Shown: piece after piece, positions 31,572-41,577 of the stretch | Layout: each line of letters begins with the position of its first letter | How positions within the stretch are numbered: position 1 is the first letter of the stretch | From: an uncultured virus (IMG/VR IMGVR_UViG_3300008262_006132) | Taxonomy: Duplodnaviria > Heunggongvirae > Uroviricota > Caudoviricetes | Direction: 5' to 3' (one strand) | Length of the DNA stretch: 64,000 nt | IMG/VR virus record: IMGVR_UViG_3300008262_006132 | Location: 62,001-126,000 of that record | Translations under genes and position numbers: made by a program | Notes under the pieces: generated by a model | What the model saw: the letters and a program-made list of their open reading frames with translations, nothing else | What the model was told of the DNA's origin: nothing | Database searches by the model: none

Positions 31572-31617
31572 AACTAATTAAAGTTATCTCCCTCTCAAGT
31601 TATATATCTAAAACAAG

Positions 31618-31642
31618 ATACCCCCTAAAATTTAGGGGGTAT
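31618..31642. terminator. Terminator-like hairpin
   Basis: ataccccctaaa-a-tttagggggtat downstream of 31667..33622. Confidence 0.55.
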
Positions 31643-31666
31643 CCATTTTCTAGCTAAGACAACCGA

Positions 31667-33622
31667 TTACTCTTTTATAATCTGCTGTTTTTGAACACCA
31701 GTCTCTGTAGTGACAACAATCATATAAACACCAGATGAAAGTTCTGAAAGGTCTAAATTATAATTATTAGAATTAAATTGATAATTTAAAATTCTTGTTC
31801 CAATTGTATTATATACAGATACATCCCTAACATCATTTTTAAAGTTATCTGTAATATAAATTAAACCTTCACTTGGATTTGGGTAAATTACCAACTCTTG
31901 TTCTTCTTTTTCCAAAGATTCTTCAGTCTTATTATTAGGTTGAGAAGATTGAAGACTTCTCAATTCAACTTGAGTATACTCTGGTCTATTTCTAACGCTT
32001 TCTTTATAGATAATATAAGTAGTAGTTGACTTGTTACCACACTCCGTAACAGTTCTAACTAATTTATACCACTTCTGAGTATAGAGTTCGCTATCACTAA
32101 AACCATGAGTGTTTTCGGTTCTAATTAAATTCCAGTTGAAAGGAACATCTTCACTTAAATAAAGTTCCCATTTTTCACATCCTACTGTATTTGTTATGTT
32201 CACAGTTGTAAGTGAATATTTATCTTGTGAAGTCTGTTCAATACAATAGTCAAAATTTGGATCAATTGTATTTTTAAAACCATGAAGTTTTGCCATGAAG
32301 TTCTGCTTTCTAAGAATAGTATTAGGAGTCAATTGTATCCAACTTACAAAAGAACCACCAACAAATATTTCCCAGTTATCATTGCCATCATCTGTTGCAT
32401 TAACAGCTAAACTACTACCAGTTCCTTGTCCATAGTTTCCTTCGAATCCATTAACATTAGTGCCTCCAAGACCTGCTCCAATATTGATAGTTTTAAACTC
32501 TTCATTTATCTGACCATCAGTTGTGAAAGCAGTAATCTTTGGAGTCCAAGTTGGTTGATAAACTTGTTGAGAAGTTGAACTAGCAAAGTTACCAGTTGCA
32601 ATTAAATTACAATTATAAAAACAAATATCCATAATTCTACCTGGACAACCTGGATTAAAAATAGGATCCACAGACCAGTTACCACCTAGAATGTTATATC
32701 TAACTAAATTTCTAAATCCAGAAACACCAGAGGCGGTGCTAATAGAACCGCTGAAATAAGATACTAAATCTCCTTCTATACCATCACATTCAGATCCATT
32801 AACAAATATTATATCACTAATTGACATAGAGTTAGATAAATCTGTTATACCTGGAACTGGCTTAATTGTCATTTGCTCGTCAAGTTTAAAAATACCTACG
32901 TAGTTATGACCTCCTAATTCAAAATTAAATGATCCACCACAAACTAATTCTTTTGTACCGGGTATCTTTGTTATTTTTGAAATAAGACCAGTAGGAGTTG
33001 GTAACTGAACAGTCTGTAAAACTTGACCAGTGTTTGGGTCACAACATACAATAGTCTGTGTGTAACTACTCGGTGTGCCAGTTTGAAATGAATAGTATAA
33101 TTTATTGTTTTCAAAGTCGTGATAGATCGCAGAGCAAATACTAATCCAAGAAGTATAAGGACAAACGAAGTCTGTATCTCTAGTACCATCTGCGTTAACT
33201 TTATTTAAAAACCTAACACCCTGATTAACACCCCAGTTGAAACTGTTTCTTCCTGATATAAAAAACTCACCAGTTGGCTCACCACTTTCATTCTTCTCAG
33301 TCTCCATACAAACTGTCGCAAACTGACCAGGCCAAGTTGCCATTTGATTATTAAAAAAAGATTGATCCTCATTTCCTGAGAAATCATATTTTCTAATTTT
33401 TGGGTAACCAGGTTCTGTCTGGTATGCATAATAAACTGAATTACCAACAACCTCGACCCCTTGTGTCTTAAAGTTTCCGTTTGTTGAAAATGGAACTCCA
33501 CCATTATTAGGTAGAAAAGTGGTGTCTATACTACCTGCTAATTGACCAAAAGAGGAAATTCCAAGGCAAAGAGCTAAAGTCGTCATTACAAGTCGACTTA
33601 ATTGACACTTAAAATTTTTCAT
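31667..33622 (-). CDS. Secreted beta-rich protein with T9SS C-terminal sorting domain
   Basis: N-terminal signal peptide; GSIDTTF/DGTRDTDF repeats; C-terminal IYPNPS...LSSGVYMIVV...KQQIIKE. Confidence 0.8.
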   Translation of the reverse strand: MKNFKCQLSRLVMTTLALCLGISSFGQLAGSIDTTFLPNNGGVPFSTNGNFKTQGVEVVGNSVYYAYQTEPGYPKIRKYDFSGNEDQSFFNNQMATWPGQFATVCMETEKNESGEPTGEFFISGRNSFNWGVNQGVRFLNKVNADGTRDTDFVCPYTSWISICSAIYHDFENNKLYYSFQTGTPSSYTQTIVCCDPNTGQVLQTVQLPTPTGLISKITKIPGTKELVCGGSFNFELGGHNYVGIFKLDEQMTIKPVPGITDLSNSMSISDIIFVNGSECDGIEGDLVSYFSGSISTASGVSGFRNLVRYNILGGNWSVDPIFNPGCPGRIMDICFYNCNLIATGNFASSTSQQVYQPTWTPKITAFTTDGQINEEFKTINIGAGLGGTNVNGFEGNYGQGTGSSLAVNATDDGNDNWEIFVGGSFVSWIQLTPNTILRKQNFMAKLHGFKNTIDPNFDYCIEQTSQDKYSLTTVNITNTVGCEKWELYLSEDVPFNWNLIRTENTHGFSDSELYTQKWYKLVRTVTECGNKSTTTYIIYKESVRNRPEYTQVELRSLQSSQPNNKTEESLEKEEQELVIYPNPSEGLIYITDNFKNDVRDVSVYNTIGTRILNYQFNSNNYNLDLSELSSGVYMIVVTTETGVQKQQIIKE

Positions 33623-34758: not shown

Positions 34759-35088
34759 TTACCAGATTTGACTTTTAGAGAATTTATCTTTAATAATATC
34801 CACTAAAATCACATTTTGTTCGCCTCTTGATTGATAAATAAGAACATAGTCATTTTCAATATTTTCTATTATTTTGTAGAAATCTCTTTCTCCTTTGTCT
34901 GAACAAATTTGATCTATCTTTAGATTACGTGAATACCTCAAATACTCCATTTTAATAGACTCGACTAGAACAACCATATAACCAGAGGTTCCGTCTTTTG
35001 GATGATTTAAAATTGACTCTAGATCAAATCCTGACCAAAATTTTACCAAAGTATCAGAGACTTTAAATTGTTCCAAAAAAGTCATCAT
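34759..35088 (-). CDS. Hypothetical protein
   Basis: 109-aa ORF. Confidence 0.55.
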   Translation of the reverse strand: MMTFLEQFKVSDTLVKFWSGFDLESILNHPKDGTSGYMVVLVESIKMEYLRYSRNLKIDQICSDKGERDFYKIIENIENDYVLIYQSRGEQNVILVDIIKDKFSKSQIW

Positions 35089-35315: not shown

Positions 35316-36781
35316 TTACTTCATTCCGGAAAATATATCTAAAACCACACTAAGTCTTTTTGTAATCTCAGGAAGACCAAGTGGATCTATAATAGAATTA
35401 ATTGGAGATAAAATTGACTTCATAAACTGCTCGTCATAATCAATTTCTGGTGCAAATTCTATAGGATAGGAACCCCTAATAAAAGCAAACATATCATTTG
35501 TCTTTTTATTCTTACAATAATAGTATTTGATCTTAGTTCCTGACTTAATGAATTCGTACTTTGATTGTAATAACTTATTCTGATTTAAAAGATAGTTATG
35601 ATAAGCTGCAGATTTAACAGCAAAGTGGGCACCACTAACAAATTCCAATCTATCTTTATCTTCTAAAACTTTGGTTTCATAATTAGAACAAGATGACTGC
35701 ATCGAAATATCATCGATATCTGCAAGTTCAAATTCTTTTCTAAGATTTTTAACTAATTTTAGTAGGTCTTTGATATTAAAGTCATCTGGATGGGCAAAAA
35801 GATATTTTACAATTTCAACAATCTTTTCACGGGCAAATGCCGGTGTAGAAGAACGAACAAGCTCAACACCTTTAGGAAAGATATAAGTTAGTCTATCATA
35901 AGGAATACCATCTTCATATACAATATGCTGAATGTACTTCTTTTTTGCTATATTAATAATTGATTCTGATATCCTTTCTAACTCAAAATCTTCTCTGTTT
36001 TTTACTCCATAACTACCAGCATATTCATCAAGACATTTTTTGAAATAATCTCCATACCTAAGTGCGTCTATACCATGTATGAAATCTAATTCATTATCCC
36101 AATTCCACTGTATTTCTATATCCTTAATTAAATCCTGAATATCTTTTGAATTAAATGACCGGTCTTTAACAAAATACCCATCGATAATAATTAATTCCGG
36201 ATTAGTATTAGTTATAAAATCTTTAAAATCATTTACGTTCTTAAAGTGACCAATACAATTACTATTAGTAATTTTAGATTCTTGTCTTTTTTCTAGAAAT
36301 ACAAACCTCTGATTTAAAGAATTCATCTTTGACAGTGGAAGATTCCTCCATTCACAATGTTGAATTGCTGGTTCAAAAGATACAAATAATGAATCCGTAT
36401 CTGCATAGATTGATACTTCATCACCGTCTTTTTTGGATAAAGAAGTGACATTCTTCACTCCAAGTTTAGAATGTAGTTCAAAATCTAGATGCCATTGTTC
36501 ATACCAATACTTTTCATTTACAGCATTCATAGTTTTAGTCAAGTCTCTGCCTTGCGCTGTTATAGTACCGGCGACGTGTTGATTAAACAGTATGAAATAT
36601 TGCGTAGCAAATGCTCCGTAACTTCCATTTAATATTAATTTTAAAGCATTTTCCCCTCTGTCAAAAAACAGAGGGGTTATCGAGCCAACTGAAGAGCGTT
36701 GTAATAATCAGATTCTCTCTTCAGTTGGTTGGCTTTAATTTTTAGTGACTCGATTTTTTTTAATTTATCTTCTCTCGTCAT
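35316..36781 (-). CDS. Family B DNA polymerase, C-terminal subunit of a split gp43-like enzyme; interrupted by a 38-nt gap (36682..36645), predicted 475 aa if bypassed
   Basis: Motif B reconstituted across the gap (NALQLA|LKLILNGSYG), ITAQGR, motif C YADTDS, KKKY, KGVELVRSSTP. Confidence 0.85.
36645..36728 (-). other. Candidate translational bypass element (take-off GCT 36685..36683, landing GCT 36647..36645)
   Basis: GCT CGA TAA CCCCTCTGT TTTTTG ACAGAGGGG AAAAT GCT; upstream 12-bp inverted repeat CCAACTGAAGAG/CTCTTCAGTTGG. Confidence 0.7.
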
Positions 36782-37640: not shown

Positions 37641-37692
37641 TTTAATTCTGATTTATAATATCTAATATATACAATAAATTTTGTTTTGTTTT

Positions 37693-38475
37693 ATGACCGA
37701 TAATGAAATGACCGGCAAAAGAATTAAAGTTCAAAGTATGAATGATCCTTACGTTAACTTAAAAGAGGACGATTTAGGAACAGTTGTTGGAACTGATGAA
37801 CTTGGAAATTTAATTGTAGATTGGGACAAAGGTATTACTTTAAAAATAACACCAGAGATTGATGAGTTTGAAATAGTTGAAGAGTCAAGAAAACTACATA
37901 AATTTTTTGAGTTCAAAGTAGAAGATAATATTAATGTTGATTTCATTTCTGCTAAAATGTACGAGTTAAGTGATTTAGTCTCTGAATATTCCGGAATCTC
38001 ATTTGAGTATCACATACATTCTGAAAAAGAAAATTCAAATGAAATGGGTATTTTAGAAGTTTCATTGAGTTCAACTGAAACAGATATTAAAATATCTTGG
38101 ATTTTAGACTTAGATAAACCTAATTTAAAAGTTGAAGAGTCTACTTCAGATACAACTGAAGAAGTTTATAGTTCACACCTTGAAAATATTGAAGAGGGAT
38201 TAGACATTATAGAGCATCATGTTCATAATATTTTTGAGATATCAGAGAGAAAAAAGGCACAAAGATATAAAGGTAGAAAAATTCCTGGAAAGTATCTCGC
38301 TGGTCCTCATCCAAGTAAGATGAAGAAGGAAATAGATAGATTCGTGGGAAAAAAAGAATACAAAAAAGATTGGGATGCCGACTACAAGTCTGGAAAAGGT
38401 GGTGAGGGAGAAAGAGTTAAGACTAAAAAATCTGCGGCTACAAAAGCTTACCAAAAAATGTTTGGTGATAAATAA
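37693..38475 (+). CDS. Hypothetical protein, N-terminal DUF4314-like SH3-type domain, basic C-terminus
   Basis: GKRIKVQSMNDPY...GTVVGTDELGNLIVDWDKG. Confidence 0.6.
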   Translation: MTDNEMTGKRIKVQSMNDPYVNLKEDDLGTVVGTDELGNLIVDWDKGITLKITPEIDEFEIVEESRKLHKFFEFKVEDNINVDFISAKMYELSDLVSEYSGISFEYHIHSEKENSNEMGILEVSLSSTETDIKISWILDLDKPNLKVEESTSDTTEEVYSSHLENIEEGLDIIEHHVHNIFEISERKKAQRYKGRKIPGKYLAGPHPSKMKKEIDRFVGKKEYKKDWDADYKSGKGGEGERVKTKKSAATKAYQKMFGDK

Positions 38476-38486
38476 AATATAATAAT

Positions 38487-39047
38487 ATGGAAATTAAGAA
38501 ATTTGGAAAACCTGAGAAACCTGTCATCGAAGACAAGGTTGAGAAAAATGGTTCAGTCGTAGTACCAAAAAAACTAAACGAACAAACAGTATCTCAATTG
38601 ACTGACAGACTAAAAGATGAGTACACTGCTCACTTCTATTACAGATCTGCGGCTAACTGGTGTCGTAATATGAATTACAAAAAAGCTGCTGCGTTTTTTG
38701 AAAACGAAGCGAATACTGAGTTAGAACATGCAACTGGATTACAAGAATATATGGATGACTTCAATGTTCAGCCTGAAATACCACAAACTGAGACTGATTT
38801 TAAATTCTCTACATTAGTTGATATTATCAACGGTGCATATGATATGGAATTGAATCTATTGAACGCATATAACAAAAGCTCTTCAGAATTATTCACTAGT
38901 GATTTAACAACATTTGATTTTTTACAAAGTTATAGAACAGGTCAAAAAGAAGCTGTTATTGAGTATTCTGACTTACTAAATGCATTGGTGTTAGTAGATC
39001 ACAATGATAAATTCCAAGTTCTTTACTTTGAACAAACTTACTTTTAA
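38487..39047 (+). CDS. Ferritin
   Basis: DEYTAHFYY, AAFFENEANTELEHA, TTFDFLQ...QKEA four-helix ferroxidase pattern. Confidence 0.8.
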   Translation: MEIKKFGKPEKPVIEDKVEKNGSVVVPKKLNEQTVSQLTDRLKDEYTAHFYYRSAANWCRNMNYKKAAAFFENEANTELEHATGLQEYMDDFNVQPEIPQTETDFKFSTLVDIINGAYDMELNLLNAYNKSSSELFTSDLTTFDFLQSYRTGQKEAVIEYSDLLNALVLVDHNDKFQVLYFEQTYF

Positions 39048-39757: not shown

Positions 39758-40484
39758 ATCCTAAAAGTTCATCTAATCTTTCGCCTCTAGAAGGTGTGAT
39801 TTGAGAAGAAGATGCCAATTCTTGATTTCCGAATTCTATTACTTGTTGATTGAATGATATTATTTTAGATAATCTATAAAGTAATAATTCATCTTCAATT
39901 TTATACCTCTTTTCTAAGCTTTCAAATTGATCAGTATTCCTTCGTAGGTAAAGAATAGAGTCTATGATATAGTCACTTTTATCCCAATCAAGAGAAACTA
40001 TCTGACCAGTCGAATACTTCATATTACAGATTTCGTTTCCTTCTTCATCAAACGCCCAGTAATTTGAAATTATTTCAATTACATCTTTTAGAGTTTGAAC
40101 AAAGTGGATACATGGAAGCACCGGAACATAATTAAAGTTGTATTTATAATTAATGTAATCTATTTTTTTTATTTGATGAATATTTTTTTCTTGTAGTTGT
40201 TTAAGAGTTGAAATCTCTTTGCGAAGATTCATTTCTGACCTTTTACTACAATTTTGATTGCTGTGTTTTACAGTAAATCCCTCTTCTAGGAAATTATTAA
40301 GTAAAATTTCAAATCTGGATTCGTGATTTTTAGCAATAGAAAAAGAGAATCTATAGTTGATTTTCAAGGAACTAGGATTATCAATATTGTATAATTGACC
40401 TGAAACTAAAGAATTAGAATAGGAAGAGTCTTTTATTTTTTCTTCCCAAAAAAGAATCTCACTTTTAGATAGAAACCTGCTCAT
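39756..40484 (-). CDS. Hypothetical protein
   Basis: 242-aa ORF ending SRGERLDELLG. Confidence 0.65.
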   Translation of the reverse strand: MSRFLSKSEILFWEEKIKDSSYSNSLVSGQLYNIDNPSSLKINYRFSFSIAKNHESRFEILLNNFLEEGFTVKHSNQNCSKRSEMNLRKEISTLKQLQEKNIHQIKKIDYINYKYNFNYVPVLPCIHFVQTLKDVIEIISNYWAFDEEGNEICNMKYSTGQIVSLDWDKSDYIIDSILYLRRNTDQFESLEKRYKIEDELLLYRLSKIISFNQQVIEFGNQELASSSQITPSRGERLDELLG

Positions 40485-41577
40485 CGACTTTTATTTTATC
40501 AAAGTAATTAACAAAAGTTTCGTGTGGTACCGCAACCGAAATTCTTGATAACTCTGGATTTACAGTTCTATTCAAAGAGAATTTGGTAAGAGGCACCGAT
40601 GATATCTGATTGACGAGTAAGATGTCAAAGTCAATTTTTATAATTGCAAAGGGACCAGTTGGTGTTGATGGATATTCATCAAATAAAAATCCTCTCTCTT
40701 TTAAGTAACTAATATTCTTTTTAATACTGTCTTGAGTTTTTAATTTATAATTATCTAATGCCAATTTACCATCATCTGTTGTAAGTAGTCTAGTTATTAT
40801 TTGCTGAGGTATTGTTGAAATGGAATTATACTTATATAAAGAACGAATCTTCATTGAGTTATACAATTCTTGATTTTTTGTTGCGATATATCCGACTCTG
40901 AGTCCTGATAAACCCATTGATTTAGAAAAAGATGAAATCACAATTACATTATCGTAAAATAATTCATGAATAGGATCATCAATATCATTGAAAAGAAAGT
41001 AATATGGTAGGTCTAAAATAACTGTAATATTTTTTTCTTTTGAATAGTCTAAGAATTTTTTTAAGTCATAGAAATATGGTGACCATCCAGTTGGATTTGA
41101 CGGAAAACATAACATAACTACTCCTGATGGTCCAAGTATCGGATCCAAAGCTTTGAAGTTGCCAATATTAAAATCATCAAACTCTTGAATATTTTTATTA
41201 TGAATTTTAAGAATTTTATTCCAAGATCCCCAGTGATATTTCGGAACCCAGAAGTTTTCTTCTGAAAGTGAATTAATAACTAAATCAAGTGTTGCCATTC
41301 CACCGGGAACAGTCATTACCCAGTGATCTTTCAAGTGAAATTTATCTTTAATTGCTTCTACTAATTTAGTATCACCATCATTACCACCATATTGCTGAAC
41401 AGATTTTTGATTATAGTCAAAGTCATTCATGAACGAATTTAAATCGATTAAATCTACATCCATTACTCCTCTGTGTAGTTTCAAGTAAGGTTTTCTAGTT
41501 TTCTTTTCTAGATTTTGACATCTTTCACCTATTTCAACAATTGACGAGTAAGTAACTGGGGAATGATTAATTTTCAT
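40465..41577 (-). CDS. PLP-dependent aminotransferase class I/II
   Basis: PSNPTG, LDLPY, SFSKSMGLSGLRVG (PLP lysine). Confidence 0.85.
   Translation of the reverse strand: MKINHSPVTYSSIVEIGERCQNLEKKTRKPYLKLHRGVMDVDLIDLNSFMNDFDYNQKSVQQYGGNDGDTKLVEAIKDKFHLKDHWVMTVPGGMATLDLVINSLSEENFWVPKYHWGSWNKILKIHNKNIQEFDDFNIGNFKALDPILGPSGVVMLCFPSNPTGWSPYFYDLKKFLDYSKEKNITVILDLPYYFLFNDIDDPIHELFYDNVIVISSFSKSMGLSGLRVGYIATKNQELYNSMKIRSLYKYNSISTIPQQIITRLLTTDDGKLALDNYKLKTQDSIKKNISYLKERGFLFDEYPSTPTGPFAIIKIDFDILLVNQISSVPLTKFSLNRTVNPELSRISVAVPHETFVNYFDKIKVDEQVSI

What the first reader, a model, noticed from the sequence alone, without database searches (positions are those of the whole stretch)
36645..36781. DNA polymerase motif B split by a 38-nt gap with the architecture of programmed ribosomal bypassing
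SEEN: The minus-strand ORF from ATG 36781 reads MTREDKLKKIESLKIKANQLKRESDYYNALQLA (GCT, 36685..36683), then CGA, then TAA. A perfect 9-bp hairpin follows (CCCCTCTGT-TTTTTG-ACAGAGGGG), then AAAAT, then a second GCT (36647..36645). After that GCT a different frame reads LKLILNGSYGAFATQYFILFNQHVAGTITAQGRD and runs straight into the 408-aa polymerase ORF. Skipping exactly 38 nt between the matched GCT codons gives Q-L-A-L-K-L-I-L-N-G-S-Y-G. The downstream frame has no ATG of its own before motif B. KNOWN: This matches the family B polymerase motif B (QxAxKxxxNxxYG). T4 gene 60 bypassing uses matched take-off/landing codons, a stop near take-off, stem-loops and a mini-SD before the landing site. 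Magnusiomyces mitochondrial byps use matched codons, an avoided codon and a hairpin. INFERENCE: An essential 475-aa polymerase subunit is made by ribosome hopping. CGA looks like a rarely used codon here, and GAGGGG ends 5 nt before the landing codon. The hop could act as a regulatory throttle on replication.
Basis: partly seen in the sequence, partly recalled or inferred. Interest (0 to 1): 0.95.

Follow-up and report, generated by a model that had tools for sequence, protein, structure and literature searches.

The report
Ribosome-hop gap in phage DNA polymerase
A 38-base hairpin-bearing insert breaks the most conserved motif of this large phage's only DNA polymerase back-half gene, and comparison with dozens of relatives suggests that ribosomes hop over it, as in the rare phage T4 gene 60 case.

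Summary
Four annotated-collection relatives read straight through motif B (QLA|LKL), so the window carries a true 38-nt insertion.

The insertion is not an oddity of one genome. Of 66 rows (window plus 65 loci), 41 carry a 36-48 nt gap in the same 12-codon stretch: 29 distinct sequences at six codon sites. Removing the gap restores the motif in all 41.

Every gap has a GC-run hairpin (median -20 kcal/mol) starting 5-6 nt after the last codon read, with compensatory stem changes. In five of six site classes the gap ends in the same or a wobble-synonymous codon. Carriers alone also have a second stem written into the codons that end at the take-off codon.

Gaps are scattered over the polymerase tree. 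In 20 of 41 rows, though not in the window, they sit beside a homing-endonuclease-like gene. Independent assemblies contain the insert, and two 98%-complete carrier genomes have no ungapped copy.

Best reading (about 0.77): programmed translational bypassing in a mobile cassette analogous to, but not homologous with, T4 mobA/gene 60. No RNA or protein evidence exists. The 'after-Tyr' class lacks a cognate landing codon.

Earlier notes of this scan reported similar polymerase gaps in other genomes. Five literature searches found no published report.

The parts
36683..36781 (-). First coding segment of the polymerase C-terminal-half gene: ATG plus 32 codons, ending in the take-off codon GCT (36685-36683)
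   Evidence: Homologous starts and residues appear in L001-L003 and most relatives.
36685..36728 (-). 5' stem-loop written into codons: a perfect 12-bp stem (36728-36717 pairs with 36696-36685) whose 3' arm ends in the first base of the take-off codon
   Evidence: duplex energy -20.9 kcal/mol in the window. The median is -17.8 in 30 distinct carriers, against -5.0 to -5.8 in 17 distinct non-carriers.
36645..36682 (-). 38-nt coding gap: CGA, TAA, hairpin, AAAAT and the landing codon GCT
   Evidence: Absent from L001-L004 and 19 other relatives. Its removal restores 12 of 12 motif residues.
36677..36682 (-). Rare codon CGA followed by stop TAA, directly after the take-off codon
36653..36676 (-). 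Gap hairpin: C-run 5' arm, UUUU loop, G-run 3' arm
36645..36647 (-). Landing codon GCT, 5 nt after the hairpin
35316..36644 (-). Second coding segment: motif B remainder (LKLILNGSYG), motif C (YADTDS) and the rest of the polymerase, to stop TAA
36867..37640 (-). Upstream 257-aa ORF of unknown family. It is a conserved neighbour (257-260 aa) in many relatives and occupies the place where many carriers have the endonuclease gene.
   Evidence: no Pfam or PHROG hit.

Best explanation
The gene at 36781-35316 (minus strand) encodes the C-terminal half (fingers motif B, palm motif C, thumb) of a two-gene family B DNA polymerase of a large phage with a probably Bacteroidota-type host. A 38-nt non-coding gap sits between the Ala and Leu codons of motif B.

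Proposed mechanism (inferred):
- A ribosome with peptidyl-tRNA-Ala on GCT (36685-36683) meets a stable GC hairpin that begins 6 nt further on.
- A-site decoding of the rare CGA is hindered, and a TAA behind it stops any ribosome that reads on.
- The tRNA unpairs and the ribosome slides about 38 nt.
- The 12-bp stem that ends at the take-off codon re-forms behind the ribosome and favours forward movement.
- The tRNA re-pairs with the second GCT (36647-36645), and decoding resumes at TTA, giving one 475-aa chain with an intact motif B.

Evolutionary reading (inferred from relatives): the gap is part of a mobile cassette made of a homing-endonuclease gene, the gene's 5' end and the gap. The cassette moves between polymerase alleles, and the gap probably disrupts the endonuclease's target in motif B. 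The window's phage kept the gap but has no endonuclease gene.

What is shown and what is inferred: the insertion, its family, its structure, its covariation and its linkage are shown. The hop itself is inferred.
For: 1. True insertion in an essential motif: L001-L004 are contiguous.
2. A family of gaps: 41 of 66 rows are gapped, with 29 distinct gaps of 36-48 nt at six codon sites, and removing the gap gives 12 of 12 motif residues in 39 rows and 11 of 12 in 2 rows.
3. The gap is not read as codons. Gap lengths fall in all three phases, every in-frame gap holds an in-frame stop, and L043 differs from L044/45 by one G in the G-run.
4. All 29 gaps fold, at -16.8 to -31.5 kcal/mol and z -3.8 to -10.8. 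The stem covaries: 96.2% of cells are paired versus 65.8% shuffled (0 of 500), 8 of 11 pairs carry double changes, and the score is 0.84 versus 0.12-0.23 when slid. Nine GNRA loops and one UUCG loop occur among the 29.
5. The hairpin starts 5-6 nt after the take-off codon in most gaps, or directly after it in extended stems.
6. Landing codons are identical or wobble-synonymous in all 20 distinct gaps of five site classes (GCT>GCT/GCA, CTY>CTA, GTT>GTA/GTT, GGT>GGT, TCT>TCA). Every difference is at the third base. Their 3' spacers hold 0 premature cognate triplets, and most spacers are AU-rich.
7. A 5' stem is specific to carriers.
8. Mobility: the tree needs 23 state changes against a minimum of 6. 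L022 and L023 are 96-100% identical downstream but 30-74% identical across the cassette and upstream.
9. An endonuclease-like ORF (DUF7487; PHROGs annotated 'homing endonuclease') lies directly upstream in 20 of 41 gapped rows and in 0 of 23 ungapped loci.
10. Sole copy: two 98%-complete carrier genomes hold only the gapped gene plus the distant N-terminal gene. The window's own contig has one PolB hit.
11. Independent assemblies contain the insert, and no contig skips it.
12. These features match those described for gene 60 cassettes (10.1101/2022.08.31.505936, Discussion read).
Against: - There is no RNA or protein evidence. No RNA run held the stretch, so retention of the 38 nt in mRNA and the junction peptide are untested.
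- The after-Tyr class (9 distinct gaps) has no cognate landing codon: AAC four times, TAA twice, and AGC, CAA and GAC once each. A-rich spacers contain similar triplets, so re-pairing alone cannot explain where those ribosomes land.
- The stop codon is not universal: it is missing directly after take-off in L013, L022, L059, L062 and L063-66.
- The hairpin's position, after rather than around the take-off codon, differs from T4 as I recall it.
- SD-like pairing is unlikely to help in a phage that does not use SD leaders.
- Carriers are related to one another, so the counts are not independent events.
- The window's own contig is only about 44% complete, so a second copy in this particular genome is excluded only by analogy with complete relatives.
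Confidence: 0.77

Rival explanations
1. The 38 nt are removed from the RNA (cut and religated by phage or host enzymes that recognise the hairpin), so an ordinary ribosome reads a mended message.
For: The after-Tyr class needs exact excision but has no cognate landing codon. The hairpin is the one invariant feature and could be a protein-recognition element. No data here show that the gap is kept in mRNA.
Against: Splicing gives no reason for a redundant wobble-synonymous codon at the gap's 3' end in five of six site classes, for stops right after the break, or for the absence of premature cognate triplets. The 3' boundary lies a variable 3-17 nt after the hairpin, while the 5' boundary is fixed. 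To my knowledge (recalled) no such mRNA splicing system is known in bacteria or their phages.
Confidence: 0.12
2. The gene is broken: a pseudogene, or two separate peptides (34 aa and an unstartable remainder), with the phage relying on another polymerase.
For: As annotated, the ORF stops after 34 codons, and the downstream frame has no start before motif B. The window's contig is incomplete.
Against: All 41 gapped rows (29 distinct gaps) keep a downstream polymerase-coding sequence 55-92% identical to the window's, interrupted only by the large motif-C inserts in some relatives. The upstream codons are conserved and shaped into a stem. Two 98%-complete carriers have no other copy of motifs B and C. 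The same gapped allele occurs in runs from several studies.
Confidence: 0.04
3. A -1 frameshift (or stop read-through in the in-frame cases) translates through the hairpin and leaves a 12-13 residue insertion in motif B.
For: In the window the downstream frame is -1 and is open through the hairpin, which lies just after the stop, as in classical frameshift sites.
Against: The overlap (36713-36677) has no run of identical bases that could serve as a slippery site. Relatives need shifts of 0, +1 and -1 and carry stops in the landing frame directly before the landing codon. The result would be an insertion inside the fingers helix. L043 and L044/45 differ in phase.
Confidence: 0.03
4. Assembly or sequencing artefact.
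For: The source is a metagenome-assembled fragment, and hairpins can cause errors.
Against: The identical insert appears in contigs from two further studies with 0 differences. A homologous family occurs in 40 other loci.
Confidence: 0.01

Closest known systems
Phage T4 gene 60 50-nt translational bypass within the mobA homing-endonuclease cassette (Discussion of 10.1101/2022.08.31.505936 read; original papers recalled)
   Same: [quoted passage not shown] - A stop or rare codon follows take-off.
- A stable stem-loop sits at take-off, and a 5' stem lies upstream.
[quoted passage not shown]
- The gap is linked to a free-standing homing endonuclease that is sometimes lost ('hit and run') or replaced by a GIY-YIG enzyme (L047).
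   Different: - The gene differs (family B polymerase motif B, not topoisomerase), as does the endonuclease family (DUF7487).
- The gap is shorter (36-48 nt).
- The hairpin begins 5-6 nt after the take-off codon instead of containing it.
- Six alternative take-off codons lie within 10 codons.
- The phage and its probable host do not use SD leaders.
- One class has no cognate landing codon.
- No sequence homology is expected, and none was tested.
Magnusiomyces capitatus mitochondrial byps (recalled; mentioned in passages of PMC10732093 and in 10.1101/2022.08.31.505936)
   Same: Both are short (27-55 nt) GC-hairpin inserts in an AT-rich genome. Both interrupt conserved codons, have matched or near-matched triplets, involve no SD, are mobile, and are reported to tolerate larger codon mismatches.
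   Different: The byps occur at dozens of sites in many genes of one genome. Here the covariance model found the element only in the polymerase motif, and the element is linked to an endonuclease gene.
Split gp43A/gp43B DNA polymerases of some T4-related phages
   Same: The family B polymerase is divided between motif A and motif B into two genes. In L068/L069 the N-terminal gene (515 aa) carries motif A.
   Different: Here the halves lie 100 kb or more apart, and the second half is additionally interrupted by the gap.
phiHau3 terminase UUA-dependent bypass candidate (PMC10732093, passages read)
   Same: It is a phage gene in which short inserts are proposed to be hopped over, with a stem-loop and a landing codon.
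   Different: The inserts there are 10 nt and are triggered by a tRNA-limited UUA codon, and the proposed role is regulatory.

Membership tests
Programmed translational bypassing (gene 60 type, as a mechanism class) | A non-coding gap interrupts an ORF, and joining the flanks gives the conserved protein | tested here: met
Programmed translational bypassing (gene 60 type, as a mechanism class) | Take-off and landing codons can be read by one tRNA | tested here: met
   The window has GCT/GCT. All 20 distinct gaps in five site classes match. All 9 after-Tyr gaps do not.
Programmed translational bypassing (gene 60 type, as a mechanism class) | A poorly decodable A-site codon (stop or rare codon) follows take-off | tested here: inconclusive
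   The window has rare CGA then TAA. In relatives the next codon is often common (TTT), the stop is usually one codon later, and it is absent directly after take-off in five families.
Programmed translational bypassing (gene 60 type, as a mechanism class) | A conserved stem-loop at the take-off site | tested here: met
   The position is 5-6 nt downstream rather than overlapping the take-off codon.
Programmed translational bypassing (gene 60 type, as a mechanism class) | A 5' stem-loop upstream of take-off | tested here: met
   specific to carriers.
Programmed translational bypassing (gene 60 type, as a mechanism class) | An SD-like element 5-6 nt before the landing codon that acts through the anti-SD | tested here: inconclusive
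   The G-run ends 5 nt before landing in the window, but that spacing varies from 4 to 14 nt in relatives. Only 2 of 108 ORF leaders in this contig are SD-like.
Programmed translational bypassing (gene 60 type, as a mechanism class) | A single polypeptide spanning the gap, with the gap retained in mRNA | not testable with these tools
   No RNA holder was listed, and no proteomics were available.
MobA/gene 60 mobile element (homologous family) | Insertion in the topoisomerase large-subunit gene together with a MobA-type endonuclease | tested here: not met
   The host gene is DNA_pol_B. The linked ORFs are DUF7487 / phrog_3339, phrog_12131 and phrog_5104. This is an analogue, not a member.
Homing-endonuclease-linked mobile cassette (general kind) | An endonuclease gene adjacent to the element, patchy phylogenetic distribution, and co-conversion of flanks | tested here: met
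   Met in relatives. The window itself has no endonuclease gene.
Family B DNA polymerase (Pfam PF00136) | A profile match plus motifs B and C | tested here: met
   2.6e-16 against a cut-off of 23 bits. YADTDS is present. Motif B is complete only across the gap.
-1 programmed ribosomal frameshift site | A slippery heptamer 5-9 nt before the structure, and a consistent frame relation in relatives | tested here: not met

The most novel reading that the evidence does not exclude
This would be an independently evolved, portable hop device: a 5' stem ending at the take-off codon, 5-6 nt, a C-run/G-run hairpin and an AU spacer. It would work on SD-independent (Bacteroidota-type) ribosomes at any of six codons. 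In its after-Tyr form it would land without a cognate codon, so landing would be set by something other than peptidyl-tRNA re-pairing, which would be a new rule for bypassing.
Probability: 0.25. Interest if true: 0.95.

Novelty: new variant of a known kind. Interest (0 to 1): 0.9.

Why it matters
Efficient long-range translational bypassing has rested on T4 gene 60 and its homologues, plus yeast mitochondrial byps. A second phage family would change that picture in three ways.

- It is non-homologous and sits in the catalytic motif of a replicative polymerase, with 29 natural variants at six take-off codons. That provides a ready-made mutational series for working out which signals are truly required.
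- It suggests that homing endonucleases recurrently use 'hop' inserts to protect their own target.
- It shows that gene callers will systematically mis-annotate such essential genes as truncated or missing in huge-phage genomes.

Tried and rejected
- **RNA evidence.** No RNA holder was listed for the stretch. Run X20, labelled RNA-Seq, is flagged 'probably DNA'. Its one 151-nt contig spans the gap with one extra base in the A-run at depth 2, which is too weak to use.
- **Consensus fold.** I replaced this with a gap-free alignment of 12 members that share the 11-4-11 layout out of the 29 distinct gaps. The covariance-model alignment A3 mixes both strands of the palindrome, so I did not use it for counting.
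- **Other copies of the element.** A search for further copies or a 'byp-like' family found none. There is one exact match in the window and one GC-rich perfect hairpin inside a gene in the contig. The model's only other hits over 408,661 nt are L021:373-398 (E 0.15) and the terminator-like hairpin at window 31620-31640 (E 0.31).
- **Endonuclease structure.** A PDB sequence search with the endonuclease-like ORF found only chance matches (E 0.85).
- **Window neighbours.** Pfam and PHROG scans of the window's flanking small ORFs found no endonuclease.
- **Tree.** The careful tree search did not finish within the time limit, so the quick IQ-TREE tree was used.
- **Earlier notes.** A lookup by place returned nothing.
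- **L006.** I rejected L006 as independent support, because it is the same strain as the window: 100% identical apart from a 111-nt indel.
- **Literature.** Five full-text searches found no report of bypassing in a polymerase gene. Subscription-only papers and supplements were not searched.
Full report
**What is in the window**

On the minus strand an ORF starts at ATG 36781 and runs for 33 codons to CAG TTG GCT (36685-36683). It then meets CGA (36682-36680) and TAA (36679-36677).

- A hairpin occupies 36676-36653: nine perfect pairs, ten with a U-G pair, a four-base loop, -18.5 kcal/mol and z -5.6.
- AAAAT and a second GCT (36647-36645) follow.
- From TTA 36644 a frame that is -1 relative to the first encodes LKLILNGSYG (motif B), YADTDS (motif C) and the rest of a family B polymerase, down to the stop at 35316. 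The Pfam DNA_pol_B hit has E 2.6e-16.
- That frame has no ATG, GTG or TTG before 36542.
- CGA accounts for 69 of 40,974 codons in the contig's long ORFs.

**It is an insertion, and it is real**

The four nearest records in the annotated phage collection are huge uncultured phages with 39-69% protein identity. All four start the gene at the homologous ATG and read without a break through Gln-Leu/Met-Ala-Leu-Lys.

Contigs from runs of two other studies span the insert with no differences: X7 record 32 (estuary) and X16 record 15 (freshwater). No contig in the four runs laid skips it. In all, 20 runs from 13 studies hold the stretch or part of it.

**It belongs to a family**

I examined 66 rows: the window, four phage records and 61 viral contigs.

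| Junction state | Rows |
|---|---|
| Contiguous (22 by script, L004 by eye) | 23 |
| Truncated at the junction | 2 |
| Carry 36-48 extra nucleotides within the 12 codons from Gln to Tyr of motif B | 41 |

- The 41 gapped rows hold 29 distinct gap sequences.
- Removing the gap restores 12 of 12 allowed motif residues in 39 rows and 11 of 12 in two rows.
- The break falls after six different codons, named here by the residue last read:

| Site (last residue read) | Distinct gaps |
|---|---|
| Ala of QLA (the window's class) | 4 |
| Leu | 11 |
| Val | 2 |
| Gly of NG | 2 |
| Ser | 1 |
| Tyr | 9 |

- Gap lengths fall in all three phases. All in-frame gaps contain in-frame stops. L043 differs from L044/45 only by one G inside the G-run (42 versus 41 nt). 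The gap is therefore not read as codons, which excludes frameshifting or read-through as a general mechanism.

L006 carries the identical gap but is the same strain as the window (100% identity apart from a 111-nt indel). It does not count as independent support.

**Conserved architecture**

- *Hairpin.* All 29 gaps fold into a hairpin, with a median of -20.0 kcal/mol and a median z of -5.9. The 5' arm begins with a C-run and the 3' arm ends with a G-run.
- *Covariation.* I used a gap-free alignment of the 12 members that share an 11-4-11 layout. In it, 96.2% of cells pair against 65.8% in shuffles (0 of 500 as high), and 8 of 11 pairs show double compensatory changes. The covariation score is 0.84, against 0.19 shuffled and 0.12-0.23 with partners slid.
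- *Loops.* Nine loops are GNRA and one is UUCG. These are RNA-specific stabilisers, which argues that the structure acts in RNA; this is my inference.
- *Spacing.* The hairpin starts 5-6 nt after the last codon read in most gaps. In L016 and L029 the stem extends to begin directly after that codon. The distance from the hairpin to the resume point varies from 3 to 17 nt, and that spacer is mostly AU-rich.
- *Specificity.* A covariance model of the hairpin, searched over 408,661 nt of the window and loci, hit only these sites plus two weak unrelated hairpins.

**Matched codons**

In all 20 distinct gaps of the Ala, Leu, Val, Gly and Ser classes, the last codon of the gap repeats the take-off codon or a synonym:

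| Take-off codon | Landing codon |
|---|---|
| GCT | GCT or GCA |
| CTT or CTC | CTA |
| GTT | GTA or GTT |
| GGT | GGT |
| TCT | TCA |

Every difference is at the third base. No other triplet sharing the first two bases occurs in the 3' spacer. This redundancy is what re-pairing of a retained peptidyl-tRNA predicts, and a splicing model gives no reason for it.

The nine after-Tyr gaps are the exception. Take-off is TAT or TAC, but the triplet before the resume codon is AAC (4), TAA (2), AGC, CAA or GAC. Seven of the nine share two of three bases with a Tyr codon. Similar triplets abound in those A-rich spacers, however, so what fixes landing in this class is unexplained.

**A second RNA element**

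Earlier notes of this scan on other genomes (e1-5653711, e1-5957530, e1-5957543) reported a covarying stem just before similar polymerase gaps. I tested this claim here.

- The 15 nt ending at the take-off codon pair with upstream codons at a median of -17.8 kcal/mol in 30 distinct carriers.
- In the window the value is -20.9, from a perfect 12-bp stem (36728-36717 with 36696-36685).
- In 17 distinct non-carriers the median is -5.0 to -5.8 at any of the six equivalent positions (minimum -13.3).
- The after-Tyr class is weaker on this measure (-11.2), although its full folds show long stems ending just before TAT.

**Mobility and the endonuclease**

- *Tree.* On a quick maximum-likelihood tree of the polymerase, the seven junction states need 23 changes against a minimum of 6. 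Almost identical polymerases differ in state: L022 (after Tyr) versus L020/L023 (after Ala), L034 (Ser) next to L047 (Leu), and L018 (none) next to L011 and L016 (Tyr).
- *Breakpoint.* L022 and L023 are 96-100% identical from about 120 nt past the motif for more than 1 kb. They are only 30-74% identical across the gap, the first codons and everything upstream. This is a recombination breakpoint at the cassette.
- *Linked gene.* Directly upstream and divergent, 20 of 41 gapped rows (17 of 29 distinct gaps) carry a 250-390 aa ORF. It matches DUF7487 and PHROG families annotated as homing endonuclease.
- *Variants.* L047 has a GIY-YIG/NUMOD3 enzyme there instead, and L030, L032 and L033 keep a remnant.
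- *Non-carriers.* None of the 23 ungapped loci has the ORF upstream. Four ungapped loci and the truncated L036 have a weak relative downstream of the gene.
- *The window.* The window's 137-kb contig has none.

This is the pattern described for the T4 mobA/gene 60 element: linkage, loss of the endonuclease with retention of the gap, and replacement by other endonuclease families (10.1101/2022.08.31.505936, Discussion read). That preprint never mentions polymerase.

**The gene must work**

- In the complete relatives, the exonuclease domain and motif A (DFASLYP) lie in a separate 515-aa gene 100 kb or more away. The enzyme is therefore a two-gene polymerase, and the window's fragment (about 44% complete) simply lacks the other half.
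- In two 98%-complete carrier genomes (483 and 465 kb), the only PolB matches are the gapped gene and that N-terminal gene.
- The downstream polymerase-coding sequence is retained in every carrier, broken only by the large motif-C inserts in some relatives.

**Mechanism proposed**

The steps below are inferred.

1. With GCT in the P site, the hairpin base lies about 9 nt from the first P-site base, at the mRNA entrance. There, stem-loops are reported to hinder A-site tRNA binding (PMC7282821, abstract only seen).
2. The rare CGA adds to the delay in this genome, and the TAA stops ribosomes that read on.
3. The peptidyl-tRNA unpairs and the ribosome slides.
4. Re-formation of the 5' stem behind the ribosome would bias movement forward. 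A similar idea is proposed for gene 60 (10.1101/2024.12.09.627546, abstract only seen).
5. The tRNA re-pairs at the second GCT.

The G-run is unlikely to act as a Shine-Dalgarno element. Only 2 of 108 ORF leaders in this contig have an SD-like core, against 12 of 108 control windows. The phage also encodes a protein with a T9SS sorting tail, which suggests a Bacteroidota-type host.

**What it is for**

By analogy with MobA, the gap probably breaks the endonuclease's recognition site in the conserved motif-B DNA without changing the protein. The gap would then survive after the endonuclease gene is lost, as in the window. Nothing supports a regulatory 'throttle', though it cannot be excluded.

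**Known or new**

Five full-text searches and the passages read in PMC10732093 list the following as bypass cases: gene 60 and its homologues, Magnusiomyces mitochondria, and the phiHau3 terminase candidate. None concerns a polymerase.

Earlier AI notes of this scan found similar polymerase gaps on other DNA (e1-5985038 and the three stem notes) and other endonuclease-linked micro-gaps (e1-5879515, e1-6035572). Within the scan this is therefore a recurrence rather than a first sighting.

I class it as a new variant of a known kind. It has the same logic as gene 60 but a different gene, endonuclease family, geometry and probable host translation system.

**Limits**

- All evidence is comparative and computational.
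- Carriers share ancestry, so the counts overstate independence.
- The tree is a quick search.
- The loci were retrieved by similarity to the window's protein, so the fraction of carriers (40 of 61 viral contigs) is not a prevalence estimate.

Noticed in passing
L043-L045, L051 (about 0.5 kb) and L046, L049, L052, L063-L065 (about 1.6 kb), at query residues about 84-90: Large insertions interrupt the same polymerase gene at motif C (YADTDS) in some relatives. They are probably inteins or endonuclease-bearing introns. The window has none.
   Followed up: no
L014, L016, L018, L019, L022, L025, L058, directly upstream of the polymerase gene: These phages encode a homologue of translation initiation factor IF-3 (Pfam IF3_N and IF3_C, E down to 4e-26) next to the polymerase gene. 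Whether it bears on the hop is unknown.
   Followed up: no
window 31667-33622 (-) and 31617-31643: A 651-aa protein has a T9SS C-terminal sorting domain (Por_Secre_tail, 4.6e-13), which hints at a Bacteroidota host. A 12-bp GC-containing hairpin just downstream looks like its terminator.
   Followed up: partly
window 35316-36647 versus L006: The window and the 172-kb contig behind L006 are 100% identical over the 2.2 kb compared, except for a 111-nt in-frame indel inside the polymerase gene. L006 lacks 37 codons.
   Followed up: partly
window 36648/36649, run X20 record 24: One low-depth contig carries an extra base in the A-run between the hairpin and the landing codon, making the gap 39 nt. 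It may be a natural length variant or an error.
   Followed up: no
run X16, loose end at window 36624: A relative's contig diverges at the junction into yet another C-run/G-run hairpin preceded by TTT TGA. This is a further gap variant, not among the 29 counted.
   Followed up: no
L068, L069 (N-terminal polymerase gene of LR745206 and LR756502): The 515-aa N-terminal half ends in a Lys/Glu-rich tail, and the C-terminal half begins with a Lys/Glu-rich 30-residue head. These may be docking extensions, like the tails described for MobA- and MobE-split genes.
   Followed up: no
window 38487-39047 (+), 37681-38475 (+), 40465-41577 (-), 34759-35088 (-): The neighbours are a ferritin-like protein (6.9e-18), a DUF4314 protein, a class I/II aminotransferase (3.8e-25), and a small ORF with a sub-threshold ParE-toxin hit (E 0.0015, 19.5 bits against a cut-off of 23).
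   Followed up: no
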